Source: a virus (Duplodnaviria > Heunggongvirae > Uroviricota > Caudoviricetes). Taken from it: DNA of 64,000 nucleotides. The stretch's first letter is position 1, and each line of letters opens with the position of its first letter. A program made the position numbers and the translations under genes. This document shows, piece after piece, positions 7,542 to 42,767 of the stretch. The stretch spans positions 41,848 to 105,847 of IMG/VR virus record IMGVR_UViG_3300020048_000021; one strand, given 5' to 3'. The notes below the pieces were generated by a model that was given only the letters and a program-made list of their open reading frames with translations, was not told the DNA's origin and searched no databases.

Positions 7542-8192
7542 ATGAAAATCAATCAAATTATAGACGAATATACTGACACTGATCCAGAAATCATTAAATA
7601 TCTCACTCATCCAGATAGAGGTTATAAGTTTTTAGGGAAAGGAAGCGATCAAACATCATTTCTTGAACCGAGAACTGGACAAGTTCTTAAAATATTTGGA
7701 ACTAAAGATGATGTTGCACTTTCTCCATCGGGAAAAAGAAAAAGACCAATATTCTCAAAAGATCAAAAAATGTTCTTTACTTGGGCCAATTATTGTAATG
7801 ATAATAGTAGCAATCCATTTCTACCTAAGTTCTATGGTTTTGAAAGTTTTTATTGGAAAAAACATGTATACTTACAAATACGTCAAGAGCATTTAATTGA
7901 TTTACGACCAACTTGGGGATGGAAGCTATACAATATGTCAACTGATGCGGAAATGGGTGATAGTTTTGATGAAATGATTCAAAAATATAACTTAAACAAA
8001 GAATTATATGATCATTTTGAAAAAACCAGCGGAAAAGATAGTTTAAAACTATTTTACAAAACTATGAGTAAACTTAGTCGCATTGCTGAGGGAAAAGGAT
8101 GGACATTTGATCTAAATCCTAGAAATTTCATGATGCGAAACAATGGGACAATAGTTATTCTTGATCCATGGATAGTTGAAGAAGAATACTAA
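7542..8192 (+). CDS. protein-kinase-like fold kinase with CTS-like N-terminus
   Basis: Gly loop FLGKGSDQ, VLKIF lysine, LPKFY, catalytic DLNPRNFM, metal-binding ILDPW. Confidence 0.75.
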   Translation: MKINQIIDEYTDTDPEIIKYLTHPDRGYKFLGKGSDQTSFLEPRTGQVLKIFGTKDDVALSPSGKRKRPIFSKDQKMFFTWANYCNDNSSNPFLPKFYGFESFYWKKHVYLQIRQEHLIDLRPTWGWKLYNMSTDAEMGDSFDEMIQKYNLNKELYDHFEKTSGKDSLKLFYKTMSKLSRIAEGKGWTFDLNPRNFMMRNNGTIVILDPWIVEEEY

Positions 8193-8197
8193 ACAAC

Positions 8198-8225
8198 AAA
8201 CTCTAGAATAATATCTAGAGTTTTT
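8198..8225 (+). terminator. Rho-independent terminator
   Basis: AAACTCTAGA-ataata-TCTAGAGTTT stem with T-tract after the kinase stop. Confidence 0.75.
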
Positions 8226-8236
8226 GCGTTATAAAA

Positions 8237-8243
8237 CTAAATA
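8237..8243 (+). promoter_or_regulatory. late promoter CTAAATA
   Basis: 7 nt before ATG 8251. Confidence 0.6.
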
Positions 8244-8250
8244 CTACACT

Positions 8251-8580
8251 ATGGCTACACAATTTTATAAAACGTTAGATGATATTCTAAAACTAAAAGA
8301 AGAAAACGCTCAGCGTATTCAAGATCGTATGTCTGAATTATCAGAACACACTATCAACTCATCATATGATGATGAGCTAGCAACACTAAAAGCAAATTTG
8401 AAACAAATGGGCGTCAGTGATGGATCATTTGAGGGACAGTCAATTGAAGATAAATTCATTGACAAAAGTAGAAGACTAGAATTCATTAAAGAAAATAATA
8501 TCAAGCATGGTTCGCCACGCTGGTTTAAAGTTATGTATGCCAAACCAGAATTAACGGGTGAAGACCCGTTTGGAGAATAA
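8251..8580 (+). CDS. hypothetical protein upstream of terminase (start moved from 8224 to ATG 8251)
   Basis: The track start lies in the terminator, upstream of the promoter; conserved-looking C-terminus IKHGSPRWFKVMYAKPELTGE. Confidence 0.7.
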   Translation: MATQFYKTLDDILKLKEENAQRIQDRMSELSEHTINSSYDDELATLKANLKQMGVSDGSFEGQSIEDKFIDKSRRLEFIKENNIKHGSPRWFKVMYAKPELTGEDPFGE

Positions 8581-10175: not shown

Positions 10176-11681
10176 ATGCCAAAAAGCAGAGAATCAGTCA
10201 ACGTAGAATTAAATGATCTATTAACAACCAAAGGATTTAAAGTTAAACCACTTTCTAGCTCAGGTGAAAACGCTGTTGTGCCAGAAAAGGCAGAAGCGTT
10301 TGAATTTAATTTTAAAAGTGGTGATAAAAATTACGGAACGGTCGATATTACGATAGATGATCAAAATAATTTAATTGTTTACTATAATACCGAAGTTACA
10401 AGAGCGTTAGATGAAGACGAGGACAATGGGGGCTGGGTTAGTTTTATCAGACAATTAAGAAGTTTTGCTGTTCGTCGTGGACTTAAAGTAAAATTAGATG
10501 ACTTGGATAATATCGATTCAGATATGGCAGTAAGAGAGCATAATAGAAAGCTAGACGAAGGTTACTATGGAACTCGTCAGACAAGCTACAGTGACAATGG
10601 CCCAGCCGCTATCAAGATGATCATTAAGCACAACAAGGCTTTAGATGAAAACGATGCTAGATATCGTTATGTTGAAAGAATCTTTTTAGAAAACGAACAC
10701 GGCGAACGAGTTCTTGTGCCTAGTACTAGACCGGGAATTGGTCGTATATTTGCTAGACATCTAGCAGAGGGCGGTCTTCACAATGATGAACGATGGAAGC
10801 ATATTACCGAAATAGTAGAAGATGCTAAAAAGCTGAGTGGATTTGTTAGAGCTACAAAAACAAAACAATTTAATGAAAGCGTGCAGCGAATTGTAGTAGA
10901 AGCTACAGAACATTACAAATTCTTAAGAGAAACTCTTAAGAGATTGACTAGTGTTCGTGGATACAATAACTATTTTGAAAGTTGGACTCCTACTCTGATG
11001 GAAGATTCAGATGATTCTAGTCTAATGGAATTATTTAAAAATAGCTCGGTTGATTCTAGAATAGAAAGTGCTCTTCCTGTATTAAATAAATTAAATTTAA
11101 ACATAACAGAGACTTCGGGTGCTTCGATGTTTGAAAATTGGGCTGATAATATCTTAGATGAAATGTTAAGTCCATCACAGCCAGGACAACGTGGAGACTT
11201 GATTGAGTTACTTGGCCCTGATAGTGAATTTTTGGCTTTGGGACCTGACGCAAAAAATGCACTTGGCGAATTGAATGGATTAATTGAGAATGATAAGCTT
11301 TATGCTAGATTACGTAGAGCGGCCTCTAGAGATACTAATAGAGATGCTCGTAGTATAATTATAGCGTGGATGAGTGAGCAACGTGGCGATGAATATCATG
11401 ACATCTTAGATCAGATAGAGCCACAAAGTGATGATACTGAAGTACCAGCTGAAGCACCAGCTCCTCCAGCTTCACCAGCTCCTCCGAAAGAAGAGCCAGA
11501 GTCAGAAGAAGAGTCAGAAGAAGAGCCAGAAGAAGAGCCAGAAGAAGAACCAGCTGCTCCAGAGATGTCTCAGATTCCGGCACTAAGTGGAGGAAATCAA
11601 GTAAAAGAACATCAACAGAAAAATAATTCAACTAAACTTTCTGAATCACTACAACGAATTAAAAAATTGAGCGGACTATGA
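10176..11681 (+). CDS. hypothetical prohead core/scaffold-like protein
   Basis: Acidic, many LxE sites, Glu/Pro-rich linker, C-terminal LSESLQRIKKLSGL. Confidence 0.55.
   Translation: MPKSRESVNVELNDLLTTKGFKVKPLSSSGENAVVPEKAEAFEFNFKSGDKNYGTVDITIDDQNNLIVYYNTEVTRALDEDEDNGGWVSFIRQLRSFAVRRGLKVKLDDLDNIDSDMAVREHNRKLDEGYYGTRQTSYSDNGPAAIKMIIKHNKALDENDARYRYVERIFLENEHGERVLVPSTRPGIGRIFARHLAEGGLHNDERWKHITEIVEDAKKLSGFVRATKTKQFNESVQRIVVEATEHYKFLRETLKRLTSVRGYNNYFESWTPTLMEDSDDSSLMELFKNSSVDSRIESALPVLNKLNLNITETSGASMFENWADNILDEMLSPSQPGQRGDLIELLGPDSEFLALGPDAKNALGELNGLIENDKLYARLRRAASRDTNRDARSIIIAWMSEQRGDEYHDILDQIEPQSDDTEVPAEAPAPPASPAPPKEEPESEEESEEEPEEEPEEEPAAPEMSQIPALSGGNQVKEHQQKNNSTKLSESLQRIKKLSGL
11490..11552 (+). 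repeat. 12-bp in-frame tandem repeat (T/C)CAGAAGAAGAG encoding (S/P)EEE
   Basis: About five imperfect units seen directly. Confidence 0.8.
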
Positions 11682-12856
11682 GAGCAAAACAATTCATCAT
11701 TGAAAATTCAGAGCCGGTAGGTAGAGAATTTCAACACATCGAAGATTTGGCGTATATATACGGCCCAGAAGGCGCCATACGTGCTATAGAAAGATTAATT
11801 AGAATTAATCAAGATAGCGGACATATGGAAGTTAAGTGGGACGGTAGCCCAGCAATTATATTCGGTCGAGACGAAAAAGGACAGTTTCACTTTGGTGATA
11901 AATTCAGTCGTCAACTTAACACTAGCTCAGAAATGTTATACAAACAGTATGAGCCTAAAGATGCCAACAACGATGATCGTAGAAAATTTGCTGGAGAGAT
12001 GATGGCTTTATATAAACTATATGAAGAAGCAACTCCAATTGAGTATCGTGGATTCTTAGAGTGTGGATTACTATATAAAGTCAGACCAAAATTGGAAAAT
12101 GGAGAATTTTCATTTCAGCCTAATACAGTAATTTATCACGTAGATGCTAATAGTAAGTTGGGACAAATGATAGGTCATAGTACCAGCGCCGCCGCAGCCA
12201 CAGCATATTTTAAAATAATTCCTGGAATGGGCGGTCAACGTGAAGCAGTTGGTGACAAACATGTAGGAATTGGAAGTAGAAGCGTTCTTATTATTCCTCC
12301 TAAATTTACCGAAGTTCAGGCAAACGTTCCAATTGAAAAACTTAAAAGAGTAGAGACTTTTATTAAACAATCTGCTCCTAGAATGGAAGAATTTTTAACA
12401 CCTAGCGAAGAATGGGTACAAACATTTAGAAATGCAGAACAAGCTGGCCCTGCATGGCGTCAAGTTATTTACAAATACGTAAACAGTCAGGTAGATACGC
12501 CGGGAGCATTAGATTCACTAGGATCAAACATGAGTCAATGGGCAACTACTGATATTATATTGACTACTCGTCGTCGACCAATTGCTATTGATAAAATAAA
12601 AAGCAGTCAAAGCGGGTTAAGAGCAACGTTCTTAGTAGTTCGTGCTATTATGCATTTGAAAGATATGGTTATTGATCAAATAGAAAAACCGACACTTGGA
12701 ACTCTTGGCATTAGAGCAGAATTGCCATTTGACTATGGATCAGGAGGTGAAGGATTCGTTAGTGACCCAGCAGGCGGAGTTCAACCATTAAAATTTGTCA
12801 AACGTTCTGGATTTACAGCAGCAAATCGTTATCAAAATCGTGGCGGGAAATCGTGA
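11678..12856 (+). CDS. ATP-dependent RNA-ligase/capping-enzyme-like nucleotidyltransferase (DUF6267-like) with CTS-like N-terminus
   Basis: Motif I KWDG, motif IV GEGFV, motif V LKFVKR. Confidence 0.6.
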   Translation: MRAKQFIIENSEPVGREFQHIEDLAYIYGPEGAIRAIERLIRINQDSGHMEVKWDGSPAIIFGRDEKGQFHFGDKFSRQLNTSSEMLYKQYEPKDANNDDRRKFAGEMMALYKLYEEATPIEYRGFLECGLLYKVRPKLENGEFSFQPNTVIYHVDANSKLGQMIGHSTSAAAATAYFKIIPGMGGQREAVGDKHVGIGSRSVLIIPPKFTEVQANVPIEKLKRVETFIKQSAPRMEEFLTPSEEWVQTFRNAEQAGPAWRQVIYKYVNSQVDTPGALDSLGSNMSQWATTDIILTTRRRPIAIDKIKSSQSGLRATFLVVRAIMHLKDMVIDQIEKPTLGTLGIRAELPFDYGSGGEGFVSDPAGGVQPLKFVKRSGFTAANRYQNRGGKS

Positions 12857-13656
12857 AAATAAGAGAGCTATTAGCTGAGTCAGTTCAGAAAACTGGAAAT
12901 AATGATTCCGCTGTAGTAGGGTGGGGACGTGGAATGGGACACAAAGGGCATATGTACTTGGCTCATGCGGTCATATCTACGGCTCATAGATTGAACGCTG
13001 ATCCCTATTTTATCGTAAGTGAAACCATTGGAAAAGACGACCCGTTGATGCCCGATGAGAAATTGGAAATTTATCGTACTGTATTTCCTAATCACGCTAA
13101 TGTATTTCAAACTGCTAAAAATTTAATTGATGTATTACATGAATTAAACAATAGCGGATATAAAAACTGTATGGTTATGGTCGGAGAAGATCAGAAGAAC
13201 GAATTTCAATATTTACTCAGATACAATGGAAAACCAGCAAAAACAACTGGCAATATTATATATAATTTCGACAAATTAACGGTAATAAGTCGTCAAGAAT
13301 CTGGAGATAAATATGCTAACGAAGCTGGCCCTAGAGCTACTCCAATGAGAGATATATTAAAAGATCCAGAAGCCACTTATGAACAAAAATTTGATTTATG
13401 GCGTAGTAGTATGCCGTCAAAGTTAGATGATGGAGAGGTAGAACATTATATGCAACTTGCAGCAGAACGAATGGGATTTCCAGTAGAACAAGGATTAGAC
13501 GAGGCAGATAATCCAAACAATGGCGGAGCGGGAATGGGAAGTCAAAGTGCTATTCCTGGAACTCCAACTGATCTATCAACTAATGAACCAACTCCCAGAG
13601 AACGTAAAATTGCTGCAATAAACAATAGAAATACAGAAAAATTCATGGGTCACTAA
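12853..13656 (+). CDS. HIGH-motif (cytidyltransferase-like) nucleotidyltransferase with CTS-like N-terminus
   Basis: GWGRGMGHKGH (HxGH), DPL..EK, MVGEDQ, RATPMR; GTGA overlap with upstream gene. Confidence 0.8.
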   Translation: MKIRELLAESVQKTGNNDSAVVGWGRGMGHKGHMYLAHAVISTAHRLNADPYFIVSETIGKDDPLMPDEKLEIYRTVFPNHANVFQTAKNLIDVLHELNNSGYKNCMVMVGEDQKNEFQYLLRYNGKPAKTTGNIIYNFDKLTVISRQESGDKYANEAGPRATPMRDILKDPEATYEQKFDLWRSSMPSKLDDGEVEHYMQLAAERMGFPVEQGLDEADNPNNGGAGMGSQSAIPGTPTDLSTNEPTPRERKIAAINNRNTEKFMGH

Positions 13657-13658: not shown

Positions 13659-16600
13659 ATGAAATTGTACGAATTATTCAATGAAAAAAGAAATGTACAA
13701 CTGAATGAAGTTAATATGAGTTCTAGTGCATTAAAATCTTGGGCAAAAAAACATGCTAGTGGCATGAAAGCGGGGTTTGAAGCAGAGCTAATATTTAAAG
13801 ATATGCTTAACCCTACAGTAGATGATGAAGAAGATCAAGATCGAGAACCTGATTATGATAGAGATGAGCGAGCCAATACTATAGATCAAATCCTAGAGTT
13901 TTTTAGTCCATTACTTGATTTATCCACGAGAAACTCTGCTGAACAACAAATGCACGATTCTTACACTGAATGGAGAGACACTGCAGTACTTGAGGAATTT
14001 GCTGAACAGGCACGTGACTTGATAAGAGACTATATTAAAGCTGATCTTCGCTGGGAATATTCTGAAAAAATTCATGAATATTTTGTTAATGAACTGGGTA
14101 AAACTTCAGAAGAAGCAACTGATATAATGAATGATCCAGATCGCACTGATAATGATGAGTACATATTTGTAAAAAGAGAAGTATCAGATCAATTAACTCA
14201 ATTAGTTGAACGTTCTATGAGAGATCATGATGGAAACTGGCAGGGAGCTTATGACGAGTTTATAGAAAACTGGGAAGCTTCTGAAAGAAGTTGGTTGAGA
14301 AATATTGGTATCTTTAATATGCGTGATGTAGGCTCAAGATTTTCATTCGCGAATGAATGGCCATATTGGAGTCGAGTAAATAACTCTGCCCCTGCAGATG
14401 GTCACTATCATGTAGGACATGCTCTTATTTTGGCAGGTAGTCTAGAAAAAACACTAGGTGTAAAAACACAAGTAGAATCTGGTACTAGAGGCTCCGCAGC
14501 AAAACGTAATACTCCATCTGATGTTTGGGTATTTGAAGCAGATGGTAGCTTAAATTCAACTAATAGCGAAGACATGCCCGTGGAAATTGTTAGCCCACCT
14601 ATGTCTCTAGAAGAAACTCTAGCAATTATGCCTAAGTTCTTTGAATGGGCAAAAAGTCACAAAGCCTATGCTAATAAAAGTACTGGAATACACATGAGTG
14701 TTAGTATGCCAGAACACAGTGGTAATGATTTAGATTACGTTAAGGCAGCATTATTTTTGGGTGATCAATACATACTAGAACAGTTTGGTCGAACTGCCAA
14801 TTCATATGCTCAGTCGGCAATGAAAAATATTAAAGATATTATTAACTCAAGCAGATCAAGAACTGTTATACCAAGACCAGATAATAAAATTGAGCAAGCA
14901 TTTAAACAAATGCGAACAGAGTTAAATTCTTTAGCTACAAATGCATTTGCCTCTTCTGCCGGATATGGTAAGTATTTTACGATTAATCCCAAAGACAAGT
15001 ACATTGAATTTCGTTCAGCTGGTGGAGTAGATTACGTTAATAATATTTCTAAGCTACAAAATACAATGTTACGTTATGCACGTGCAATGAGTATAGGCAT
15101 GGATGTCAATGCAGAAAAGCAAGAGTATGCTAAGAAATTATATAAGTTATTAGGTGATGTTACATTACAAAAAGATTCTGATGGTAAAGTAACAACTGTA
15201 TCTAAACAAGATCCAATTTGGTATTTTTCTCAATATGTAGCTAATGAATTGCCACGAGCAGCATTAAAAAGTTTTATTAAACAAATTCAAAGCACTCGTA
15301 AGCTTTATAAAAAGTCAGATAAAGGCGAGAACATGTTTTATAGAGTTGCATATAGAGCATACGAAGGAGGAGATCGTCAAGGTGGGCCACAAACAACTGT
15401 TCAGGCCAGTAGTCAAGATGAAGCTATAGCTTTGGCTCGTGCAGAATGGCACATATCTCCAGAAACTCATCGAGGATGGCAAAATTCTGACTTTATAGCT
15501 AGACCGATAGGTTCGACTCCAACGGGCGCAGCAAATGTTACCACACAAAATAACCCCGACAATCTACCTCGATGGGAAGTATTTAATATTAACGATTTTT
15601 CATGGACGGTTCCTGGATTTGGTGATACTGAACGAGCTGCTATCATGAATGCTCTACAAAATTATCATTATAGTTTATGGACTAGAGGATCAACTGAGCC
15701 TACAGAATTTAGAGCAACATTACTATCAGATGATGCCACATCCAGACAATATGATAGTTCAAATGATATTCAGCCTGGGCATATACCGGACTATTTGCCA
15801 AATAACACTTCAGATGGAAATTGGGCAATAAGAAATAGAGATAGTAATCGTCAAGTTGGACGAGGACCAATACTGTATCAATTTCAAGCTTTGGGAAATA
15901 ATCTGGCAATTGACATAGCAATGCAGTATGCAACAGCAATAGGAGTTTCACGAGATCGTTTGTGGTTAAGTCCTATATCTGAAGTTCCACGAGAATATAG
16001 AACACAAAGATCAGAAAATCATGAAACTCGCCACCCTGTAGAATTAGACGTTAATCAAACAAGTACAACTGGATATTGGATTGTGTTTAATTCAGCCGAT
16101 GGTGTTACAAACATGGACAATCTAGCTCTTCTTCCAGCTATTACTGCACAAGATGCACAACTTGCATATCAACATTGGCTTCAAAATACTGGTTACATGC
16201 TAGGGCGTGAGGCAAGATTTTTTCTTCGCCCAGCAGATTCATATGACGTTATAGATGCACGAGATAGAAATCTTCCAGTTCCTCCCAGAATGCCGGCTAA
16301 CTCTTCACAGACTCTTGAACCAAGTAATCCTGAAGGCAATTGGGGAATAAGAGCATCAGATGGTCGTATAGTGTATCGCTTTATTAGCCACAATACCGGT
16401 ACGTTAATTGATCGTTTAAGAGCATATGCAAATGCAATAGGACAAGATTACAGAAATTATAGTATAGACAGAGTTGACCCAGAGAGTACTACTGCTGAAC
16501 CAGAACAGTCTACTAGTACGTCTACTGATCCAGATGAATCGCTACAATGGAATATTATCGACTCTGCTACTAATGAAGTTCTACATCATATTACTTTGCC

Positions 16601-16733
16601 ATCAACGACTCCGCCATCTCAAAGACATACCGATGCGTGGCAACTGGGAGTAGAATGGACAGATGATGCCAGAATTCGAGGACTTCGTATACCACGAATT
16701 GAATTAGTTCCATTGCCAATGCTGTATCCATAA
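13659..16733 (+). CDS. putative amidoligase (COOH-NH2 ligase, GCS/GS fold) paralog 1 with C-terminal repeat modules
   Basis: GFEAE, EADGS, EIVSPP, NKSTGIHMSV, KYFTIN, YIEFRSAGG. Confidence 0.8.
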   Translation: MKLYELFNEKRNVQLNEVNMSSSALKSWAKKHASGMKAGFEAELIFKDMLNPTVDDEEDQDREPDYDRDERANTIDQILEFFSPLLDLSTRNSAEQQMHDSYTEWRDTAVLEEFAEQARDLIRDYIKADLRWEYSEKIHEYFVNELGKTSEEATDIMNDPDRTDNDEYIFVKREVSDQLTQLVERSMRDHDGNWQGAYDEFIENWEASERSWLRNIGIFNMRDVGSRFSFANEWPYWSRVNNSAPADGHYHVGHALILAGSLEKTLGVKTQVESGTRGSAAKRNTPSDVWVFEADGSLNSTNSEDMPVEIVSPPMSLEETLAIMPKFFEWAKSHKAYANKSTGIHMSVSMPEHSGNDLDYVKAALFLGDQYILEQFGRTANSYAQSAMKNIKDIINSSRSRTVIPRPDNKIEQAFKQMRTELNSLATNAFASSAGYGKYFTINPKDKYIEFRSAGGVDYVNNISKLQNTMLRYARAMSIGMDVNAEKQEYAKKLYKLLGDVTLQKDSDGKVTTVSKQDPIWYFSQYVANELPRAALKSFIKQIQSTRKLYKKSDKGENMFYRVAYRAYEGGDRQGGPQTTVQASSQDEAIALARAEWHISPETHRGWQNSDFIARPIGSTPTGAANVTTQNNPDNLPRWEVFNINDFSWTVPGFGDTERAAIMNALQNYHYSLWTRGSTEPTEFRATLLSDDATSRQYDSSNDIQPGHIPDYLPNNTSDGNWAIRNRDSNRQVGRGPILYQFQALGNNLAIDIAMQYATAIGVSRDRLWLSPISEVPREYRTQRSENHETRHPVELDVNQTSTTGYWIVFNSADGVTNMDNLALLPAITAQDAQLAYQHWLQNTGYMLGREARFFLRPADSYDVIDARDRNLPVPPRMPANSSQTLEPSNPEGNWGIRASDGRIVYRFISHNTGTLIDRLRAYANAIGQDYRNYSIDRVDPESTTAEPEQSTSTSTDPDESLQWNIIDSATNEVLHHITLPSTTPPSQRHTDAWQLGVEWTDDARIRGLRIPRIELVPLPMLYP

Positions 16734-19613: not shown

Positions 19614-22076
19614 ATGAAATTATATGAGTTCTTAATTCAACAATTAGACGAAGTAAGTCAAGCTCCGACACGTTTAGCTCAATTTGCTAATAGTCCCGAG
19701 GCAGAAGGAATCATTGCCGGTTTTGAAGCCGAGCTATGCTTTTCTGATATTCGTGAGAACACTGATTCTGAATCAGAGCCTGATATGGAGTATGATCGTC
19801 ATTCTAATAGTATTAGTAATATTATTGATTTTTTTAGACAGGGCGATAACATGGGTTATCGAGAGCTAGATCGTCTACAAACAAATTTAACTGAAGATTT
19901 TCTTGAATGGGTAACTGAGCAAGCATCAGAAGACTTTGAAAAAAATAAAGAAAGATTAATTAAAGACTATATCATAGAAAATGAATGGGATTGGGACGAG
20001 CAAATAAAAATTGATTTAAAAGATAATGGCTATGATGATGGTAGAATAGAAGACGCGATCTTTGCTAATAACAAAATTATTAAACTTAGAAATAACTATC
20101 AAAAAGATTCATTTCAATACAAATTAGAAGTTAAACCATATTTAGATGATTATCAACTTTATTTAATTGGAAAAGAACTGGCAGACAAGACATTAGATGA
20201 TATGGTAGAAAACTCTATTAACTCTCGCGATGATATCTATGATCAAACAGAAGAGCATATCAGAGAAGAATACGGAGAAGATTCAAACATAGAGAATGAG
20301 TGGCTGGCAGCTGCCGATCTCAGTTACATGAGTGACGTGAATCTCGCTTATGATGATGCATACTGGCCATTTTGGACTAGTGATTATGACGAAGATGAAG
20401 GATTTGATGAGTCGGCAGCACAGTGGCTTGCAAATGATTTAAAAGCAAAGTTAGGAGTAAGAACATTTGTAAGTAGTGGTCATGGATCTGGCGGAGATAG
20501 ACAAAAAGATTGGGTATTTGAACCAGATGGTAGTTTACAGGCTAGTAGTACTAGCGACATGACAGTTGAAATAGTTAGTCCTCCTATGCCACTAAAAGAT
20601 TGTCTTGATATAATGCCTAAGTTTTTCAAATGGGCAAAATCACGCGATGCATATGCCAATGAAAGCACAGGTTTTCATATGAGCGTAAGTGTACCATCAC
20701 AAGATACAAGTTTAATAGACTATACTAAACTGGCATTGTTCTTAGGTGATGTGCATGTTCTAGAAGAGTTTGACAGAGATGGTAATCATTTTTGTGTGTC
20801 TGCTATGGAAAAAATCAAAGCCAGAGTAGCAAAAGGAAATATTGATATAGAAAATGTATTCACTTTGATGAAAGAGGGTCTTGATAATATTGCTAGCAGT
20901 TTAATAGCACCAAACGGTGGGTTTGGAAAATATATCAGTATAAATCCTAAAGACAAGTACATTGAATTTCGTAGTGCCGGCAATACAGATTATTTTGATG
21001 ATATAGATAAATTACAAAATACACTACGTAGATATGCACAAGCTATACACATTGCCAGTGATCCTTCTTACGAACGAAAAGAATATCAAAAGAAATTATA
21101 TAAGCTACTTGCTCCTACCGAAAAGATTGCTCCTGAGCTTGCTAAAAAATTAGCATCATTTTCTGCTGGAAGACTAAGCAAGGAAGAATTAGATAATTGG
21201 CTAAAAGAACTAAAGAGCACACTCTTTAAGAAAAATTTAATTAGAAATACAGATAGTCTAGCAGCATCAGGAAAAATATTAAACTGGGATGTTTCAGCTA
21301 AAGGCGAACCAAGATATAACTACTGTAATGTTTTTGCAAAAACCAAAAAAGATGCACTTGAGTTAGTTAAAAAATGGGAAACAGAATGGCACAACACACG
21401 TGCATCTGTCGATGACTGGGAAGCTACGCTAGTAGGAGAAAGTACAACAGAATCATCAATGAAACGTGTTGCGGTCAGAGATCATTATGGAACTTTGACT
21501 ATAGCAAATAATTCAACTAATCTTTCCGACGCGTATCTTACTCAATCTAAGTGGGAGCTAGTAAATAATAATGAATTAGTACCAGAAACAGTTTGTAAAG
21601 TACTGGCTAGTGACAAATCAGTTGCTGAGGTAATAGCTGATTCGTGGCTACGTTCTATGCATAATCAACGTAATGGACTAGCCGGTTTTGAGCTTAAACC
21701 ACTAAATGAAGTGGCTCGAACTGAAATGAATCAATCTACACAAACTAGATCAAATTCTAATGTTCAAGATATTGGAATGGATATTGCTCAAAACTTTATT
21801 CCTGGATCCACTTTGGACTTACAACATCAAGCTCAAGCTCGGCGTCAACGTCAACGAGACGCACGACTATCAGGGGGCGAATTTACTGGTGAGTGGATAG
21901 TGGTTAATGGATCGGATCAAGAAGTTTATAGATTCGGTGGCATAGGCAACTCTCAAAGTGATGCTAATCGAGTAGCTGGTGAATGGGCACAGAGAACTGG
22001 ATATTTCAACAACAACAACTCTAGATACTCAGTATATCCGGTACTGAGTCCCGATACAAATCAATCCACAACTTAA
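19614..22076 (+). CDS. putative amidoligase paralog 3
   Basis: GFEAE, EPDGS, EIVSPP, NESTGFHMSV, KYISIN, YIEFRSAGN. Confidence 0.8.
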   Translation: MKLYEFLIQQLDEVSQAPTRLAQFANSPEAEGIIAGFEAELCFSDIRENTDSESEPDMEYDRHSNSISNIIDFFRQGDNMGYRELDRLQTNLTEDFLEWVTEQASEDFEKNKERLIKDYIIENEWDWDEQIKIDLKDNGYDDGRIEDAIFANNKIIKLRNNYQKDSFQYKLEVKPYLDDYQLYLIGKELADKTLDDMVENSINSRDDIYDQTEEHIREEYGEDSNIENEWLAAADLSYMSDVNLAYDDAYWPFWTSDYDEDEGFDESAAQWLANDLKAKLGVRTFVSSGHGSGGDRQKDWVFEPDGSLQASSTSDMTVEIVSPPMPLKDCLDIMPKFFKWAKSRDAYANESTGFHMSVSVPSQDTSLIDYTKLALFLGDVHVLEEFDRDGNHFCVSAMEKIKARVAKGNIDIENVFTLMKEGLDNIASSLIAPNGGFGKYISINPKDKYIEFRSAGNTDYFDDIDKLQNTLRRYAQAIHIASDPSYERKEYQKKLYKLLAPTEKIAPELAKKLASFSAGRLSKEELDNWLKELKSTLFKKNLIRNTDSLAASGKILNWDVSAKGEPRYNYCNVFAKTKKDALELVKKWETEWHNTRASVDDWEATLVGESTTESSMKRVAVRDHYGTLTIANNSTNLSDAYLTQSKWELVNNNELVPETVCKVLASDKSVAEVIADSWLRSMHNQRNGLAGFELKPLNEVARTEMNQSTQTRSNSNVQDIGMDIAQNFIPGSTLDLQHQAQARRQRQRDARLSGGEFTGEWIVVNGSDQEVYRFGGIGNSQSDANRVAGEWAQRTGYFNNNNSRYSVYPVLSPDTNQSTT

Positions 22077-37486: not shown

Positions 37487-37735
37487 ATGAAAAAGATTAC
37501 TAGATCGTTACTAGAAGAACTGAACTCTATTGCAGAAAATAAAGATACAAAACTCATACTAGAAAGTAGAGCTAATAATATCATTAATTCTGCTATTCAT
37601 CTGCTTGAAGTTATCGAAAGAAATTTCACTCCAGAACAGTCAGCAATACTAGAAAAGAAACTCTTGATAGCGATAAAAAATCGCGACAGTGAGAAGTTTG
37701 CTCGTAGTCTGAAACGAACTGGGAACGAACAATGA
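37487..37735 (+). CDS. hypothetical protein (start moved from 37472 to ATG 37487)
   Basis: Track start overlaps the promoter. Confidence 0.7.
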   Translation: MKKITRSLLEELNSIAENKDTKLILESRANNIINSAIHLLEVIERNFTPEQSAILEKKLLIAIKNRDSEKFARSLKRTGNEQ

Positions 37736-40596
37736 AAATTAATGATCTTATATCAGAAAACACCGTCAATGAAGATACTTGGAGTGATCTAGGAACTTTG
37801 GCTGGTAATACTGTTAAGAAAGGTATAAATCGAGGTCTTGATAAAGTAGGATATCATCCAGAAACTGCTAAAGCAGATAAACTAGATTCTAGAGCAAAAG
37901 CCATTGGTCTTAAGATGTTCACAAAGCAACTAACTGATTTGTTAACACATGCTAAATCTAGTGGCATGTTAGTGAATGCTACGAAACCAGATTCGTCTGA
38001 AACAGATTCGTCTGAAACAGATTCGTCTGAAACAGATTCGTCTGAAACAGATTCGCCTAAAACGCCCGCGACTTCAACAATCACTTCGGCCCCAACTTCT
38101 ATTTCGACTACTCCAAAATCTGGTCAGGTCGTTCAGTTTCCAGGAACAAATTTAAACTTTACTTATACACCACGATTTGTAGACGATAATAATAAACTCG
38201 CTCCAGATGCTATAGCAAAAGTTTTAACTCAATTAGGTAATGGTGTTGCTAAAGATTCAATTCCAATGAGTGATCTGCAACGAGCAAGACAATCAATTGG
38301 ACTAACCGAGTCGCTTGTTAAACATAATCGTAGAAATAAAGCATTATTAGAAAGCGTATGTCATTCGATGACTCGTGATCAAAAAAGAATTGTCGAAGGC
38401 ATAACAAGAGAACTTCAGCCATTAATTGAAGTGACCTTAGATCAGACTAAAATTGATCAAATATTTCAGGCTGCCCAACAAAGTGCCACAGCCGCGGGCG
38501 GTAATCGCACCACTATTGGTCAAGTAAAGGATGTTGCCTCTGTAGTTAATGATACTATTAATAAAGCTGGAAAATGGATTCAAGATACAAAGCCAGTACA
38601 GTCATTTGATCAAAAGTTTGAAAAAATTAAAAATAATGTATCACAAAAATTTCCTGAATTAGAAAAAACATTAACTGGTATAGGAACTTGGGCCAAGGCA
38701 AATCCTGGAAAAACTGCTGCTGTTATTGGTATAATGACTGCTTTAGCCTCATTGGCGGGTGGTCCTGCCGGCGGCGCAATTGCTGCTCAAATTCTAAGAG
38801 GTACCTCTGAATTATTGAAAGGCGAAAAGGTATCAACTGCTGTAGGTAAGGGTGCAAAGTCTGCCGCTATTGGTGGAGCATTAGGCGCCGGTATATCCTC
38901 ACTAGGAGATTATTTTGGAAATATTAAGGTTGTTGCCGAAAAGATTCCAGGATATACACAGCTTAGTAGATTAAATTTTATTAAGCGGGCGGTGTCAATA
39001 GGAGGCAAGAATTCTGGAGCATTTTTTGGTGATCTACGTGGATTAGAGATTCCAACTCAGTTGGCTCCTAAAGTATATGCACTTTTAGATCAGACTTCGA
39101 AGTATATCAACGCTGAAGATTGGGCGGGAGCAAATAAATATTGGAATGAAGTTAAAGCTATAGTTGAAAATCCAGAGGTACTCCACGCTGTGGAAAAGAT
39201 AGCTTATAATAATCAAAAATTAGTTGATCAAGCAGTAGCTGACGCTGACAATTTTAAAAAGGTAGCTGACAAGATTTCGTCTACTCTTGCCGCAGCTGCA
39301 CAGGGTGGTGTGGCAGCCGCTCACACGGGCACCTCTGTCAAACCAACAGCTTCGGTTCCAACGGCAGAATCAATTGATTATGACATAACTAATAAAATGT
39401 GGTCATTAAATGAAAGCATAGGTCGTCGTCGTGGCGGAGTTCACTTGACAGAAGCTGGTGTCATGAACGCCATAAAACAAACTGCTGGGAAAGTAGGTCA
39501 ATATGCTCAAACTAAAGGTCAGAACTTAACTACTAAAATTACTGCTAATAAACTAAAACAAGCGTGGGTAAAAGCAGGATCACCAACTGACAGTGAAGAA
39601 ATTGAAAAAGTACTACAGAATAATGGAGTATCATCTGATATTACTAATTCTGTATTTAAATCATTGAATATACCAATCTCTGGATCTTCAGCATCAGAAA
39701 CTACCCCAACATCAGACGAAATTTCATCTGTAGAACCATCTACTTCTGAACCATCTACTTCAACAGCGGCTCAAGTTAAAGTAGAACCAGGACAAAAGAT
39801 ACAATTTCCTGGTTCTACTTTAAGTTATACGTTTAATCCCGTATGGCTTGATTCGAAGAATCAAGCAGCATCTAAAGATGCAGCTAAAGTTCTAACTCAA
39901 TTGGCTAGCGGAGTTGGAAAAGATGCTATACCAATGGGTGATCTACAACGAGCAAGACGATCAATTGGTTTACCAGAAAGCAAACAGTATAGATTGTTTA
40001 GTACATTGTTAGAATATAAAATGCTAGAGGCTGAGCAGATTACTCAAACTACAGAGCAATTTATTAATCAATTTCTTGATACACAAACTGGACAATTTAA
40101 ACACTATGATACCTATTCTAGCAATTTAAAAGTATTGGCACAAAAAGCATCTAAAGAATTTGACTCAACTGGAAAAATTAATCCAGAGACAATGAATAAA
40201 ATGTGGGAAAATCTATGGATGTGGAGCAAGATGAGTGGAGGCGGATCTCATTCTAATACTCAGTCAAGATCATCTAGTAGACAAACCTCGGGCGAAAAAA
40301 CAAACAACACTGAAAAGAAAATATCTTCTGATGACTTTGAGAGAGAATTAAGAAAAAATGTAAATTTAGATATTTCTAATTATTCTAGTAAATCTCAAAT
40401 GGAAAAATCTATCAAATCACTAATAACAAAATTAGATGGAGATTTAAGAAGTATAACCATAGCTCGTGAGATACCAGAAGACAAAATATCTGAGACGTTT
40501 CAGTCGTTAATGAATAAAAATCCAATGGATGATTATGATAAGAGCGTCATTCTCAAAAATTTGTATAATATAGCAAAAACTATAGGAGTAACATAA
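37732..40596 (+). CDS. large CTS-tagged internal/ejection-protein candidate with duplicated module and Gly/Ala hydrophobic segment
   Basis: MKINDLISE start, many LxE sites, two copies of QFPG...KVLTQL...DLQRAR.SIGL.ES. Confidence 0.6.
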   Translation: MKINDLISENTVNEDTWSDLGTLAGNTVKKGINRGLDKVGYHPETAKADKLDSRAKAIGLKMFTKQLTDLLTHAKSSGMLVNATKPDSSETDSSETDSSETDSSETDSPKTPATSTITSAPTSISTTPKSGQVVQFPGTNLNFTYTPRFVDDNNKLAPDAIAKVLTQLGNGVAKDSIPMSDLQRARQSIGLTESLVKHNRRNKALLESVCHSMTRDQKRIVEGITRELQPLIEVTLDQTKIDQIFQAAQQSATAAGGNRTTIGQVKDVASVVNDTINKAGKWIQDTKPVQSFDQKFEKIKNNVSQKFPELEKTLTGIGTWAKANPGKTAAVIGIMTALASLAGGPAGGAIAAQILRGTSELLKGEKVSTAVGKGAKSAAIGGALGAGISSLGDYFGNIKVVAEKIPGYTQLSRLNFIKRAVSIGGKNSGAFFGDLRGLEIPTQLAPKVYALLDQTSKYINAEDWAGANKYWNEVKAIVENPEVLHAVEKIAYNNQKLVDQAVADADNFKKVADKISSTLAAAAQGGVAAAHTGTSVKPTASVPTAESIDYDITNKMWSLNESIGRRRGGVHLTEAGVMNAIKQTAGKVGQYAQTKGQNLTTKITANKLKQAWVKAGSPTDSEEIEKVLQNNGVSSDITNSVFKSLNIPISGSSASETTPTSDEISSVEPSTSEPSTSTAAQVKVEPGQKIQFPGSTLSYTFNPVWLDSKNQAASKDAAKVLTQLASGVGKDAIPMGDLQRARRSIGLPESKQYRLFSTLLEYKMLEAEQITQTTEQFINQFLDTQTGQFKHYDTYSSNLKVLAQKASKEFDSTGKINPETMNKMWENLWMWSKMSGGGSHSNTQSRSSSRQTSGEKTNNTEKKISSDDFERELRKNVNLDISNYSSKSQMEKSIKSLITKLDGDLRSITIAREIPEDKISETFQSLMNKNPMDDYDKSVILKNLYNIAKTIGVT
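37990..38055 (+). repeat. perfect 15-bp tandem repeat GATTCGTCTGAAACA x4 plus partial (DSSET)
   Basis: Units start at 37990, 38005, 38020, 38035. Confidence 0.95.
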
Positions 40597-40775
40597 TGAC
40601 TCCGATGATTGGTGATTTTGGAAAATGTGGATGTGGTCGTAGCAAAGATCAACCTTACTGTGATGGATCACATGCTTTTCCTGACGATGATGAATTATCA
40701 GACGAAGTTTATAAAGTATTACCTGAATTGCCAATTGACAGCGATCAAAAGCGTAATCCATACGCTCAAACATAA
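40596..40775 (+). CDS. 59-aa CDGSH iron-sulfur (NEET-type 2Fe-2S) protein; absent from ORF track
   Basis: CGCGRSKDQPYCDGSH matches C-x-C-x2-S-x3-P-x-C-D-G-S-H; GGAG RBS 40585-40588; TAATG overlap. Confidence 0.9.
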   Translation: MTPMIGDFGKCGCGRSKDQPYCDGSHAFPDDDELSDEVYKVLPELPIDSDQKRNPYAQT

Positions 40776-40809
40776 TTCTACACATATGTTCATTTACTCT
40801 AAATAGTGA

Positions 40810-41265
40810 ATGAACATTAAATGCTACACGCTGTACGATATCACAAGAACAAATATCAATAGAAAAAAGTTTACAGATTTTGTAAGCAAAGAAGAGCATA
40901 AACAAAGAAATCAACAGTGTAATCTTGAAACTATATTTCAAATAATCAATATGCGTTCTCAACCTGAAGATATTTCAGAAGTCAAAAAGCTAACACTTCA
41001 GTGTAAAGATATCATCGATCATTATGAATTTGGATATCTTTACACTAATAACGTGGAAGATACAAAATTATTCAATATATGGGCATTTTCATTCACGATT
41101 GAGCATCCAGATGTATTCAATAATGGTCGAGAAGAGTTAGGCAATCTGATAAGCGATTGTGATCAAGTTCCGATGATTGTTAATTTAGAAGAATCATTTA
41201 AGCTGTCACAACAGTTAAACATCTCGAATGAATTACGTAATATCTACTTTGAGATAGTCAAATGA
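40810..41265 (+). CDS. hypothetical protein
   Basis: 151 aa; CTAAATA at 40799-40805. Confidence 0.75.
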   Translation: MNIKCYTLYDITRTNINRKKFTDFVSKEEHKQRNQQCNLETIFQIINMRSQPEDISEVKKLTLQCKDIIDHYEFGYLYTNNVEDTKLFNIWAFSFTIEHPDVFNNGREELGNLISDCDQVPMIVNLEESFKLSQQLNISNELRNIYFEIVK

Positions 41266-41804
41266 AAAAAACTACCAAACTATACAAACAGTTGTCAACT
41301 ATAGTAGAGCATACACTAATAGAATTGATAAACACTATAATCATAAAAGTTGGAAATCATTATGTATTGTATAATAAATATACTATCAAACGAGAAATTG
41401 ATCATGTGATCGTGTTCAAGCGAGATAACTATGAATCGTATGAATTTAGCTATATGAAGAACGCAATGATATGGGTACAGTTAGATAAAAATCAAAAATT
41501 TTCAGAAAGAAATAGAATTTATAGATTAGATAAAGAACTTACTAGTATAGAAATTGATAAAAAAATACATACTAGATTAAAGTTAAAGAACTCACATGAC
41601 ATTAATCAATTTACTGTATATGCTACTAAATTACAAAATGATAACGCTAAACAAAAGCAAATTGTGGTAGAAATTGATAAATACTTTATATTAGCTAACA
41701 GATATTCTAATAAATATCATAAACAGGAAACTAAAAATGAAATTAACCGACATGTCCCAATCAAGAAAAATTCAAACCAAGCGCGCACTTCGCGAACACT
41801 TTGA
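41262..41804 (+). CDS. hypothetical protein
   Basis: 180 aa, ATGA overlap. Confidence 0.7.
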   Translation: MKKTTKLYKQLSTIVEHTLIELINTIIIKVGNHYVLYNKYTIKREIDHVIVFKRDNYESYEFSYMKNAMIWVQLDKNQKFSERNRIYRLDKELTSIEIDKKIHTRLKLKNSHDINQFTVYATKLQNDNAKQKQIVVEIDKYFILANRYSNKYHKQETKNEINRHVPIKKNSNQARTSRTL

Positions 41805-42420
41805 ATTTGATGTAAATTTAAACAAATTAGATCAACGATCTACTCGTCAGATGTTGTCTAAGGTTCGTGGTTTATTAAAAGAAACTAGAATCAGTAATAA
41901 TTTTATTAAAAATCAAACTAAGCCATCTTATCTTAAAATGGTCATGTTAGAGCAAGTACTGTATAATCACTATCAAGATATTAGACTTCAATCAAGAATT
42001 GTAACAGAAAATGAAGAAGTTGAAAAGTCACAAGTTATTTTGGCTGCTCAAGATATGATTGATCAAATTCAAAAAATGGTCGTACAAGTTTCAAAAATGA
42101 ATGCTGAAGAATTGCCAGCCGTTGTGAATGGAATCAGCAACGAAATTGGAACTTCAGAAAGCGAAACGTATCAACAAAGCGTGGCAGAAGCGTTAACTAC
42201 TTTATTACAGTCATTGACTACTTCAAAAGGAAGCTTAACAAGTGCATTGGGTCAAATCACCGGAGAATCTTCTGACGAAGGCTTTGGCGGCGATGATATG
42301 GGTAATGATTTTGGTGGTGGTGATATGGGTGGTAATGATATGGGAAATGAACCTTCATCAGAATTTTCAGAACCAGAAGATCAAGAAGACTTTGGTTCTG
42401 CCGGCCGTGAGATGAGATAA
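41737..42420 (+). CDS. hypothetical prohead core/scaffold-like protein
   Basis: Helical, acidic Gly-rich tail, VTENEE site; ATAAATA at 41710-41716. Confidence 0.6.
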   Translation: MKLTDMSQSRKIQTKRALREHFEFDVNLNKLDQRSTRQMLSKVRGLLKETRISNNFIKNQTKPSYLKMVMLEQVLYNHYQDIRLQSRIVTENEEVEKSQVILAAQDMIDQIQKMVVQVSKMNAEELPAVVNGISNEIGTSESETYQQSVAEALTTLLQSLTTSKGSLTSALGQITGESSDEGFGGDDMGNDFGGGDMGGNDMGNEPSSEFSEPEDQEDFGSAGREMR

Positions 42421-42422
42421 TC

Positions 42423-42767
42423 GTGAGATTATTTGAATTCGCTGGAGACGACGATAATTCACTACGAATTAAGTTGACTGGTATCATCAGTCAACTTATT
42501 GGTAGACTTAATGATACTGATACAACAAAGCCTTACTCATTAAAATCTTTATTGAGTACATTAGATCATAGTGGAATATCATTAAGCCCAGAGCAATTTC
42601 GTAATATGCTTGAAGAAGAACCATTGAAAAACTTGATCTCTAATATTCAGGGAGACAATGTTATATTCAAAGGTCAAAGCAGTAGTGATAGTGAAGTAGA
42701 AGCTCCAGATGAAACTACCGATACATTGAAAAGAATGGCCGGTAGAGCAGAGAAAAAAAGAAAATAA
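42423..42767 (+). CDS. hypothetical protein (MRLFEF start)
   Basis: 114 aa, abuts upstream gene. Confidence 0.7.
   Translation: MRLFEFAGDDDNSLRIKLTGIISQLIGRLNDTDTTKPYSLKSLLSTLDHSGISLSPEQFRNMLEEEPLKNLISNIQGDNVIFKGQSSSDSEVEAPDETTDTLKRMAGRAEKKRK

What the first reader, a model, noticed from the sequence alone, without database searches (positions are those of the whole stretch)
7542..42767. Unrelated enzymes share a T4-like capsid-targeting N-terminal peptide: candidate injected enzyme payload
Seen: N-termini MKINQIIDE (7542 kinase), MRAKQFIIE (11678 ligase-like), MKIRELLAE (12853 HIGH NTase), MKLYELFNE (13659), MKLYELFEKQLNE (16783), MKLYEFLIQQLDE (19614), MKINDLLQE (26301), MKINDLISE (37732), and more weakly MRLFEF (42423). 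Six of these place Glu exactly at residue 9, preceded by a hydrophobic residue at -2. All are under (A)TAAATA late promoters or in late-promoter operons, and none of the replication genes here starts this way. Established: T4 IPII/IPIII carry the capsid-targeting sequence MKTYQEFIAE, removed by prohead protease gp21 after (I/L)xE, and such proteins are injected with the DNA. Inference: this phage makes catalytic proteins late, loads them into the head and delivers a ready-made modification or anti-defence toolkit at the start of the next infection.
Basis: partly seen in the sequence, partly recalled or inferred. Interest (0 to 1): 0.9.

Follow-up and report, generated by a model that had tools for sequence, protein, structure and literature searches.

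The report
Capsid-loading tag on phage enzymes
Eight otherwise unrelated late proteins of an uncultured giant T4-related phage (a kinase, an RNA-ligase-like enzyme, a nucleotidyltransferase, three amidoligases and two unknowns) begin with the same nine-residue peptide, which most likely loads them into the phage head for delivery with the DNA, as the T4 capsid-targeting sequence does.

Summary
A profile built only from the first nine residues of DUF6267 homologues in other phages ranks exactly the eight flagged proteins as the top 8 of 231 ORFs. Column shuffles give 0.15 such hits. The tag is conserved in homologues of four of the families and sits outside the folded domains. In fused relatives, the same hydrophobic-x-Glu junction lies inside the protein at the domain boundary.

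In two cultured relatives with virion proteomes, tagged proteins are virion proteins:
- Cyanophage S-CREM2: 4 of 4.
- PA5oct: 4 of 5.

Homologues of the nucleotidyltransferase are among those detected.

The prohead protease is not on this half-genome contig. A complete relative and PA5oct both have a gp21-type protease, next to a small head-core protein carrying the tag.

I read the peptide as a T4-type capsid-targeting propeptide (about 0.65). Cleavage, ejection and any anti-defence role are inferred, not shown.

It is a new variant of a known kind: a different tag, large enzymes, and a polyvalent protein split into tagged genes. This scan has noted similar tags before in other uncultured phage genomes.

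The parts
7542..8192 (+). 216-aa protein-kinase-like enzyme with the tag MKINQIIDE
   Evidence: phrog_15752, a T7 gp0.7-type kinase family, E 4.7e-7. The family alignment has invariant K50, D190, N195 and D208, and E9 is conserved in at least 90% of members. Two members give weak Kinase-PolyVal Pfam hits. Of 100 stand-alone homologues, 48 score at least 8 bits on the tag profile. A TAAATA box lies at 7529-7534, 7 nt before the ATG.
10176..11681 (+). 501-aa untagged virion-type protein, first gene of the late operon that carries the next three tagged genes
   Evidence: Homologue of PA5oct gp278, a virion structural protein detected by ESI-MS/MS. phrog_13484. GATAAATA at 10147-10152.
11678..12856 (+). 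392-aa DUF6267 protein, RNA/DNA-ligase-like nucleotidyltransferase, tag MRAKQFIIE
   Evidence: Pfam DUF6267, 79 bits against a cut-off of 27. K53-x-D55-G56 is invariant. The AF2 model has pLDDT 91.6, with residues 1-10 below 50. The top 22 VIA-align hits are all ATP-dependent RNA/DNA ligases, Z 5.6-7.8. Most homologues start M[KR]xx[EDQ][FIL][IL]xE, followed by a linker of variable length and then the conserved core.
12853..13656 (+). 267-aa HIGH-motif nucleotidyltransferase (cytidylyltransferase-like), tag MKIRELLAE
   Evidence: phrog_3041, E 2e-22. GHKGH motif. 30% identical to S-CREM2 ORF154, a virion-detected cytidylyltransferase. In about 665-aa ligase-NTase fusions the tag position is an inter-domain [LM]xE linker.
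13659..16733 (+). 1024-aa Amidoligase_2 protein, tag MKLYELFNE, with a second site QLNE|VNMSS at residue 17
   Evidence: Pfam PF12224, 33 bits against a cut-off of 22. Paralogue of the next two genes. Family-wide L-x-E|V[NA]MSP junction.
16783..19593 (+). 936-aa Amidoligase_2 protein, tag MKLYELFE...QLNE|VNMSP
   Evidence: GATAAATA at 16772-16777, 5 nt before the ATG.
19614..22076 (+). 820-aa Amidoligase_2 protein, tag MKLYEFLIQQLDE|V
   Evidence: GATAAATA at 19603-19608, 5 nt before the ATG.
26301..27686 (+). 461-aa protein of unknown fold, tag MKINDLLQE, next to a Dam-type methyltransferase gene
   Evidence: E9 is invariant in 28 homologues down to 34% identity, and divergent members keep [LIV]xE|G. 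AATAAATA at 26287-26292. No Pfam, PHROG or PDB match.
37487..37735 (+). 82-aa ORF (MKKITRSLLEE...) with a late box 5 nt upstream; leads the operon that holds 37732
   Evidence: GATAAATA at 37476-37481 lies inside the longer GTG-started ORF call. Homologue of PA5oct gp259 by position, and of a G001 84-aa ORF by sequence.
37732..40596 (+). 954-aa protein of unknown function, tag MKINDLISE
   Evidence: Tag score 10.7. No family match.
42423..42767 (+). 114-aa protein with a weak tag variant, MRLFEF
   Evidence: 4.4 bits only. Its G001 homologue starts MRLFEL. Distant DUF6267 members use MRF[FYH]EF.
4059..6749 (+). 896-aa multi-domain protein of polyvalent type (N-terminal domain plus ParB/Srx); probably packaged, but without the 9-mer tag
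   Evidence: The N-domain (residues 15-235) is 36% identical to S-CREM2 ORF156, which is in the virion proteome. The same N-terminus (MDIKELQDYRLSDAVKFH) heads 1200-1600-aa amidoligase fusions. ParB-like PHROG hits. A TAAATA box lies 4 nt before the ATG.

Best explanation
The nine-residue peptide M-[KR]-[ILA]-x-[EQDK]-[LIF]-[LIF]-x-E is a capsid-targeting propeptide of the T4 type.

Proposed mechanism:
- The tagged proteins are made late.
- The tag docks them to the scaffolding core while the prohead assembles.
- The gp21-family prohead protease then cuts after the Glu, or after a second L-x-E a few residues on.
- The mature enzymes stay in the head with the DNA and are probably expelled into the next host.

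Predicted cargo of this phage, about 5,070 residues in all:
- a small protein-kinase-like enzyme
- an RNA-ligase-like enzyme and its partner HIGH-motif nucleotidyltransferase
- three amidoligases
- two proteins of unknown fold

In relatives, several of these modules are joined into single polyvalent proteins, with the same L-x-E junction between modules. Here they are split into separate genes, each with its own tag.

Shown: the shared tag, its conservation, its position outside the folds, the internal junctions, the late-promoter context, and virion detection of tagged proteins and homologues in two cultured phages.

Inferred: docking to the core, cleavage, ejection, and what the enzymes do in the host.
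For: 1. The tag is shared by 5-6 unrelated families far beyond chance.

2. It is under selection as a peptide.
- It is conserved across homologues of DUF6267.
- In the 26301 family, E9 is invariant in 28 sequences.
- In the kinase family, 48 of 100 representatives at 50% identity or less score at least 8 bits.
- It is conserved in the short amidoligases.
- Codon usage differs between copies.

3. It lies outside the folds. Residues 1-10 of the ligase model and 1-11 of the 26301 model have pLDDT below 50. The linker to the conserved core varies in length.

4. Junction evidence.
- In ligase-NTase fusions, a conserved [LM]xE sits in the linker where the split NTase has its tag.
- In 98 of 120 amidoligase homologues, a single L-x-E|V[NA]MSP junction precedes the module. 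It lies at residue 13-24 in tagged short forms and at 430-775 in polyvalent fusions.

5. Virion proteomes.
- In S-CREM2, the four annotated proteins matching a loose tag regex (SAM hydrolase, kinase, cytidylyltransferase, ORF13) are all among the 52 virion proteins out of 221. My arithmetic gives p of about 0.003.
- In PA5oct, the pre-fixed profile picks gp333, gp246, gp104 and gp309, all ESI-MS/MS positive, and gp213, which is negative. The base rate is 93/461, giving p of about 0.007.

6. PA5oct gp333 (MKINDIITE) is a 73-aa gene between the portal and the gp21-type protease, the position of T4 core proteins gp67/68.

7. The complete relative G001 (TerL 63% identical) has a portal-protease-scaffold-MCP module and its own, mostly different, tagged proteins.

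8. Published T4 work: the first 10 residues of IPIII suffice for packaging, and residues 8 and 10 govern cleavage (PMC9026906; PMC5694885). T4 IPII and IPIII start MKTYQEFIAE.

9. The S-CREM2 authors note that kinases and cytidyltransferases are often detected in cyanophage virions (PMC10665884).
Against: - There is no proteomic or genetic data for this uncultured phage.
- The contig holds no portal, protease, scaffold or major capsid gene. It has only a 129-aa gp21-like paralogue that lacks the catalytic His and Ser.
- Virion MS lists are noisy. PA5oct's list includes ribonucleotide reductase and thymidylate synthase, and the S-CREM2 authors warn of co-purification.
- I wrote the S-CREM2 regex after seeing three of its four hits. 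The fixed 9-mer profile does not transfer to S-CREM2's 10-mer tags: its best hit is ORF15, and a DNA polymerase subunit scores 7.8.
- The conserved L-x-E before a module could simply be the first turn of that module.
- Nothing here bears on ejection or on function in the host.
Confidence: 0.65

Rival explanations
1. The proteins are packaged through the tag but work inside the prohead or capsid, as core or inner-body components or as enzymes acting on head proteins or packaged DNA. They are not an injected host-directed toolkit.
For: PA5oct's tagged proteins are small (70-229 aa) and one sits in the head-core gene position. Amidoligases are predicted peptide or protein-modifying enzymes (Pfam PF12224; Iyer 2009, cited in PMC7824862). 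T4 gp67, gp68 and gp22 are core proteins that are degraded, not injected.
Against: The kinase, RNA-ligase-like and NTase activities have no obvious substrate in a DNA-filled head. T4 Alt and the IPs, which carry the same kind of tag, are ejected. The same domain types occur in polyvalent proteins predicted to enter the host.
Confidence: 0.15
2. The tag is a recognition or docking helix for another phage machine, such as the phage-encoded ClpA-like unfoldase and DnaJ (degron or chaperone signal) or an oligomerisation partner. Capsid association is secondary or absent.
For: The contig encodes DnaJ and a ClpA-like ATPase just upstream (PA5oct gp186/187). PA5oct also has ClpX, ClpS and ClpP. A review suggests such AAA+ proteins may translocate proteins into heads (PMC7824862).
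Against: The S-CREM2 record (six regions) annotates no Clp genes, yet its tagged proteins are in virions. The tag closely resembles the experimentally defined T4 CTS, including the P3/P1 cleavage residues. The same tag sits on a head-core gene in PA5oct.
Confidence: 0.1
3. The shared N-terminus reflects translation-initiation constraints on near-leaderless late mRNAs (A-rich, unstructured 5' coding sequence), not a protein signal.
For: Four tagged genes have a TAAATA box only 5-8 nt before the ATG and no Shine-Dalgarno sequence. MK starts are common in AT-rich phages.
Against: Synonymous codons vary while residues 6, 7 and 9 are kept. Other genes with the same promoter spacing lack the tag (4059, 57834). 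Three tagged genes are internal operon genes. The same motif is conserved inside fused proteins, where no initiation occurs.
Confidence: 0.04

Closest known systems
T4 capsid-targeting sequence (CTS) of IPI, IPII, IPIII and Alt, removed by prohead protease gp21
   Same: A short N-terminal peptide on otherwise unrelated late proteins. It has a basic residue at position 2, a hydrophobic pair, and Glu at the end in a (L/I)xE motif. An enzyme cargo (Alt) is already known. The cargo set varies between relatives while the tag is kept.
   Different: - The tag is 9 residues with a different consensus (T4: MKTYQEFIAE).
- The cargo is mainly large enzymes (216-1024 aa, about 5,070 aa in all) rather than small basic IPs.
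- The host phage is a roughly 340-kb PA5oct-like jumbo phage.
- Cleavage and packaging are untested here.
Polyvalent proteins of phages and conjugative elements (Iyer, Burroughs, Anand, de Souza, Aravind 2017, J Bacteriol; cited in PMC7824862)
   Same: The domain repertoire overlaps: Kinase-PolyVal-like kinase, ParB/Srx, NTase, amidoligase. Homologues of the amidoligases and of the 4059 N-domain are fused in 1200-1600-aa proteins. Both are predicted to be delivered with the DNA.
   Different: Here the modules are separate genes, each with its own N-terminal tag. The link to a CTS and L-x-E protease junction is my inference and I did not find it in the papers searched.
Virion-associated kinases and cytidylyltransferases of T4-like cyanophages (S-CREM2, S-CRM01, S-TIM5; PMC10665884)
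   Same: The same enzyme classes. The S-CREM2 cytidylyltransferase is a homologue of 12853 and ORF156 is a homologue of the 4059 N-domain. They are detected in virions by mass spectrometry.
   Different: The authors left open whether these proteins are truly packaged and did not mention a targeting peptide in the passages read. The S-CREM2 tags are 10-mers (MKxFxSFLxE), nearer to T4's.
Propeptide-targeted ejection proteins of phiKZ-like phages (SPN3US, phiKZ; PMC5694885)
   Same: Many head-internal proteins are processed by a gp21-related protease after x-x-E. The propeptides are thought to target them to the prohead. A diverged protease paralogue is present.
   Different: Those propeptides are mostly longer than 100 residues and the lineage is different (Chimalliviridae-like). 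Here the tags are T4-length.

Membership tests
T4-type CTS-bearing, gp21-processed head-internal proteins | A short (about 10-19 aa) N-terminal peptide shared by otherwise unrelated proteins of one phage | tested here: met
   Eight proteins from 5-6 families; the profile ranks them 1-8 of 231 ORFs.
T4-type CTS-bearing, gp21-processed head-internal proteins | The peptide ends in the gp21 cleavage motif (L/I)-x-E | tested here: met
   The sites are IDE, IIE, LAE, LQE, ISE, LNE and LDE. 13659 has FNE at residue 9 and LNE at 17. The motif is kept in homologues and at internal junctions.
T4-type CTS-bearing, gp21-processed head-internal proteins | The phage encodes a Peptidase_S77 (gp21) prohead protease and a scaffolding core | tested here: inconclusive
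   Not on this contig, which is 49% complete. It holds only a 129-aa paralogue without His or Ser. The protease is present in the complete relative G001 (97 bits) and in PA5oct.
T4-type CTS-bearing, gp21-processed head-internal proteins | Late expression | tested here: met
   By promoter motif only: TAAATA boxes or operon position behind one for all eight. No transcript data.
T4-type CTS-bearing, gp21-processed head-internal proteins | Physical presence in virions with the tag removed | not testable with these tools
   Proxy only: tagged proteins and homologues are in the virion proteomes of S-CREM2 and PA5oct. No peptide-level data are held.
Polyvalent proteins (Iyer et al. 2017) | One very large polypeptide combining many unrelated enzymatic and DNA-binding domains | tested here: not met
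   The tagged genes are separate ORFs. Only 4059-6749 is multi-domain. Homologues elsewhere are fused, so these are split relatives, not members in form.
DUF6267 / covalent nucleotidyltransferase (ATP-dependent ligase) superfamily | Pfam DUF6267 match; KxDG motif I; adenylyltransferase fold | tested here: met
   79 bits against a cut-off of 27. K53, D55 and G56 are invariant. The top 22 structural neighbours are all RNA/DNA ligases, but Z is only 5.6-7.8, so the fold assignment is moderate.
Amidoligase_2 (PF12224) | Pfam match above the gathering score | tested here: met
   33.0, 28.7 and 25.4 bits against a cut-off of 22.
Protein-kinase-like fold kinases (T7 gp0.7 / Kinase-PolyVal type) | Gly-rich loop, catalytic Lys, D-x-x-x-x-N catalytic loop, metal-binding Asp | tested here: inconclusive
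   The motifs are present and invariant in 36 homologues. phrog_15752 E 4.7e-7. The Pfam Kinase-PolyVal hit is weak and seen in only 2 of 36 members. No PDB sequence match.

The most novel reading that the evidence does not exclude
The tag plus the L-x-E junction form a sequence-readable packaging code used across the T4 superfamily: T-even phages, marine cyanomyoviruses and PA5oct-like jumbo phages. The code lets polyvalent proteins be split, fused and shuffled while every module stays packageable. This phage uses it to inject a ready-made kit at the start of infection: a kinase, an RNA-ligase-like enzyme with its partner nucleotidyltransferase, three amidoligases and two unknowns. The set of injected proteins of uncultured phages could then be read directly from genome sequence.
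Probability: 0.4. Interest if true: 0.8.

Novelty: new variant of a known kind. Interest (0 to 1): 0.62.

Why it matters
Which proteins a phage brings into the cell with its DNA decides the first minutes of infection, but this is known for only a few model phages.

If this tag is a capsid-loading signal, that cargo can be predicted from sequence alone for large groups of uncultured T4-related phages.

It would also explain why kinases and cytidylyltransferases keep turning up in cyanophage virion proteomes.

It gives a mechanistic link between T4's capsid-targeting sequence and the polyvalent proteins of comparative genomics.

Finally, it nominates specific enzymes as early host-takeover or counter-defence factors worth testing: an RNA-ligase-like protein paired with a nucleotidyltransferase, and the amidoligases.

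Tried and rejected
- Megablast of the amidoligase region against cultured phages: no match.
- Foldseek against PDB for both models: nothing at E of 0.001 or better.
- VIA-align for the 26301 model: best Z 5.1, helical noise, so the fold stays unknown. The atlas hint of restriction-endonuclease-like families is a weak lead only.
- Protein 37732: no family, and the atlas model has pLDDT 0.45.
- PDB profile searches for DUF6267, the 26301 family and the kinase family found nothing meaningful.
- I tried to reach the head module of a close relative through a 341,863-bp ENA scaffold, but that record is not held. I used the IMG/VR record G001 instead.
- PA5oct gp212, annotated 'head maturation protease', is a ClpP homologue by its sequence, not the gp21-type enzyme. 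The real one is gp331.
- The TPR glycosyltransferase-like protein starting MTLIELFEQ (7.0 bits, minus strand, early region) is rejected as cargo: the match lies inside its first TPR repeat.
- The fixed 9-mer profile does not recover S-CREM2's 10-mer tags.
- No peptide-level MS data are held for either proteome.
- PA5oct bases 1-15,000 were not scanned.
- I did not run complex prediction. The tag is shorter than the tool's minimum chain, and this phage's scaffold protein is not on the contig.

Full report
**What the DNA is**

The window is bases 41,848-105,847 of a 169,847-bp IMG/VR virus contig that CheckV rates 49% complete. G+C is about 36% and nearly all genes lie on one strand.

Core genes are of T4 type:
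- gp15-like sheath stabiliser, tail sheath, tube and gp4-like head closure
- large terminase, gp32, UvsX and UvsY

The closest cultured relatives are the Pseudomonas jumbo phages PA5oct and MIJ3, with TerL 50% identical. Gene order is colinear with them. A complete 348,701-bp IMG/VR relative, G001, is closer: TerL is 63% identical and 85 of 231 ORFs are shared.

**The observation**

All the quoted N-termini are present at the stated coordinates.

Column shuffling expects 0.07.
- That pattern was chosen after the fact, so I built a profile from independent data. It uses the first nine residues of 58 distinct DUF6267 homologues from other metagenomic phages, leaving out near-identical copies.
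- Scanning every ORF start of the contig with it puts the eight flagged proteins in ranks 1-8 (10.4-11.9 bits). The next ORF scores 7.0 and the median is -9.3.
- Shuffled N-termini give 0.15 hits at 10 bits or more. Internal Met-9-mers give 0 of 1,015.
- Only the three amidoligases are paralogues.
- Codons differ between copies.
- MRLFEF at 42423 is weak (4.4 bits).

**What the proteins are**

- **7542** is a small protein-kinase-like enzyme. It matches phrog_15752. Its family has an invariant Lys, a D-x-x-x-x-N loop and an Asp. Two members give weak Kinase-PolyVal hits.
- **11678** is DUF6267. It has an invariant KxDG motif. Its confident model's top 22 structural neighbours are all ATP-dependent RNA or DNA ligases, at Z 5.6-7.8.
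- **12853** is a HIGH-motif nucleotidyltransferase.
- **13659, 16783 and 19614** contain Amidoligase_2 domains.
- **26301 and 37732** have no recognisable family or fold.

**The tag is selected as a peptide and lies outside the folds**

- Homologues of DUF6267, of 26301 and of the kinase keep the tag down to 25-35% identity. The linker to the conserved core varies in length.
- Glu9 is invariant in 28 members of the 26301 family and is at least 90% conserved in the kinase family.
- In the AlphaFold models, residues 1-10 or 1-11 have pLDDT below 50.

**Junction evidence**

- About half of the DUF6267 homologues are fusions of roughly 665 aa with the nucleotidyltransferase. In these, a conserved [LM]-x-E sits in the inter-domain linker, exactly where the split gene 12853 has its N-terminal tag.
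- The amidoligase family is very large, with 750 hits. In 98 of the 120 best hits, a single L-x-E|V-[NA]-M-S-P junction precedes the module.
- That junction lies at residue 13-24 in 36 short, tagged proteins. It lies at residue 430-775 in polyvalent fusions.
- Those fusions start with the same N-terminal domain as window gene 4059-6749.
- The same boundary is therefore either just behind a tag or inside a polyprotein, and is always preceded by the motif that gp21-type proteases cut.

**Experimental cross-checks in cultured relatives**

T4 IPII and IPIII start MKTYQEFIAE. Published work shows that the first ten residues suffice for packaging and that residues 8 and 10 control cleavage.

*S-CREM2.* This T4-like cyanophage has a published virion proteome of 52 of 221 proteins.
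- Over all possible starts in its genome, a loose tag pattern finds four annotated starts: a SAM hydrolase, a kinase, a cytidylyltransferase and ORF13. All four are in the proteome.
- ORF136 (MQTFSMFFSE) and ORF15 are also in it.
- I wrote this pattern after seeing three of the hits. The fixed 9-mer profile does not transfer to these 10-mer tags.
- The S-CREM2 cytidylyltransferase is a homologue of 12853, and ORF156 is a homologue of the 4059 N-domain.
- The authors note that kinases and cytidyltransferases recur in cyanophage virions but left their packaging open.

*PA5oct.* The fixed profile picks gp333, gp246, gp104 and gp309, all ESI-MS/MS positive, and gp213, which is negative. The base rate is 93 of 461. 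gp333 (MKINDIITE) is a 73-aa gene between the portal and the gp21-type protease.

**The protease**

No portal, protease, scaffold or major capsid gene is on the contig. By synteny with PA5oct they would lie just beyond its 5' end.

G001 has the full module, with a protease scoring 97 bits to Peptidase_S77. G001 also has its own tagged proteins, mostly of other families. This echoes the variable internal proteins of T-even phages.

The contig does hold a 129-aa gp21-like paralogue, but it lacks the catalytic His and Ser.

**Promoters**

TAAATA boxes precede 42 of 231 ORFs, including tail genes. All eight tagged genes have a box or follow one in an operon. Replication genes score low on the tag profile.

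**Rivals**

- *Translation-initiation constraint.* This is contradicted by synonymous variation and by conservation of the motif inside fusions.
- *Leader for the contig's radical SAM enzyme.* This is unlikely, because S-CREM2 and PA5oct lack that enzyme.
- *Signal for the phage Clp/DnaJ system.* This cannot be excluded but explains less.
- *Ejected or not.* Whether the cargo is ejected or acts within the head is open.

**Verdict**

The capsid-targeting reading is supported by independent computational evidence and by proteomic evidence from other phages, but it is not demonstrated for this phage.

It is a new variant of a known mechanism. The tag consensus is different, the cargo is large and enzymatic, and the link to split polyvalent proteins is new.

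Earlier notes of this scan describe similar tags in other uncultured phages. In the papers I searched, I found no link between such tags and the virion-associated enzymes.

Noticed in passing
G000:C1:144291-144680 (L001:1459-1848), outside the window: A 129-aa ORF in the early-gene region is a truncated paralogue of the gp21-type prohead protease: 37% identical to PA5oct gp331 residues 43-156. It lacks the His of the GE[LV]DHP motif and the Ser-Ser of GVSSRG, so it is probably catalytically dead. SPN3US-like phages also carry a diverged protease paralogue.
   Followed up: partly
window 4049-4054, 7529-7534, 16772-16777, 19603-19608, 26287-26292, 37476-37481: A subclass of the late-promoter-like TAAATA boxes lies only 4-8 nt before the ATG, with no Shine-Dalgarno sequence. 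This implies leaderless or nearly leaderless late mRNAs. Other late genes have the box 18-26 nt upstream, with a Shine-Dalgarno sequence between.
   Followed up: partly
window 11678-13656; L021:2986-5250; L022:2977-6507: The ligase-like DUF6267 gene and the HIGH-motif nucleotidyltransferase gene form a conserved pair. It is found in T4-like cyanophages (P-TIM40), Methylophilales phage Melnitz (with one small gene between) and jumbo phages. In S-PM2 another gene also separates them. In many metagenomic phages the two are fused into one protein of about 665 aa. Its function is unknown; RNA repair or nucleotide-cofactor chemistry is a guess.
   Followed up: partly
window 37472-37735: The longest-ORF call (GTG at 37472) probably mis-sets the start. 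A GATAAATA box overlaps it, and ATG at 37487 gives an 82-aa protein, MKKITRSLLEE..., with homologues in G001 and, by position, in PA5oct.
   Followed up: partly
window 25369-27686; L014:9545-12821: The tagged unknown protein 26301 sits next to a Dam-type DNA methyltransferase. In relatives it lies between two such genes. The protein-atlas search gave weak restriction-endonuclease-like leads, so a packaged nuclease is conceivable but untested.
   Followed up: partly
G000:C1:24153-24761 and 24777-29363 (L003:7154-12364), outside the window: Two more proteins have CTS-like starts: MTIRSFRKYLAE (202 aa) and MDIKSIWQKLDQISE (1528 aa). The first is a homologue of the PA5oct virion protein gp282. The second sits in the position of PA5oct gp281, but BLASTP found no similarity between them. 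Their G001 homologues keep an [IL]xE at the same place.
   Followed up: partly
L079:4983-5936:- (G001): If the internal ATG is the true start (MRAIELYE...), a tagged G001 protein carries a sigma-70 region 4 domain. That would mean a packaged sigma-like factor.
   Followed up: no
L018:36350-37021 (PA5oct gp212): The RefSeq product name 'head maturation protease' for PA5oct gp212 looks wrong. Its sequence (printed) looks ClpP-like to me; I ran no family search on it. The gp21-type protease is gp331.
   Followed up: partly
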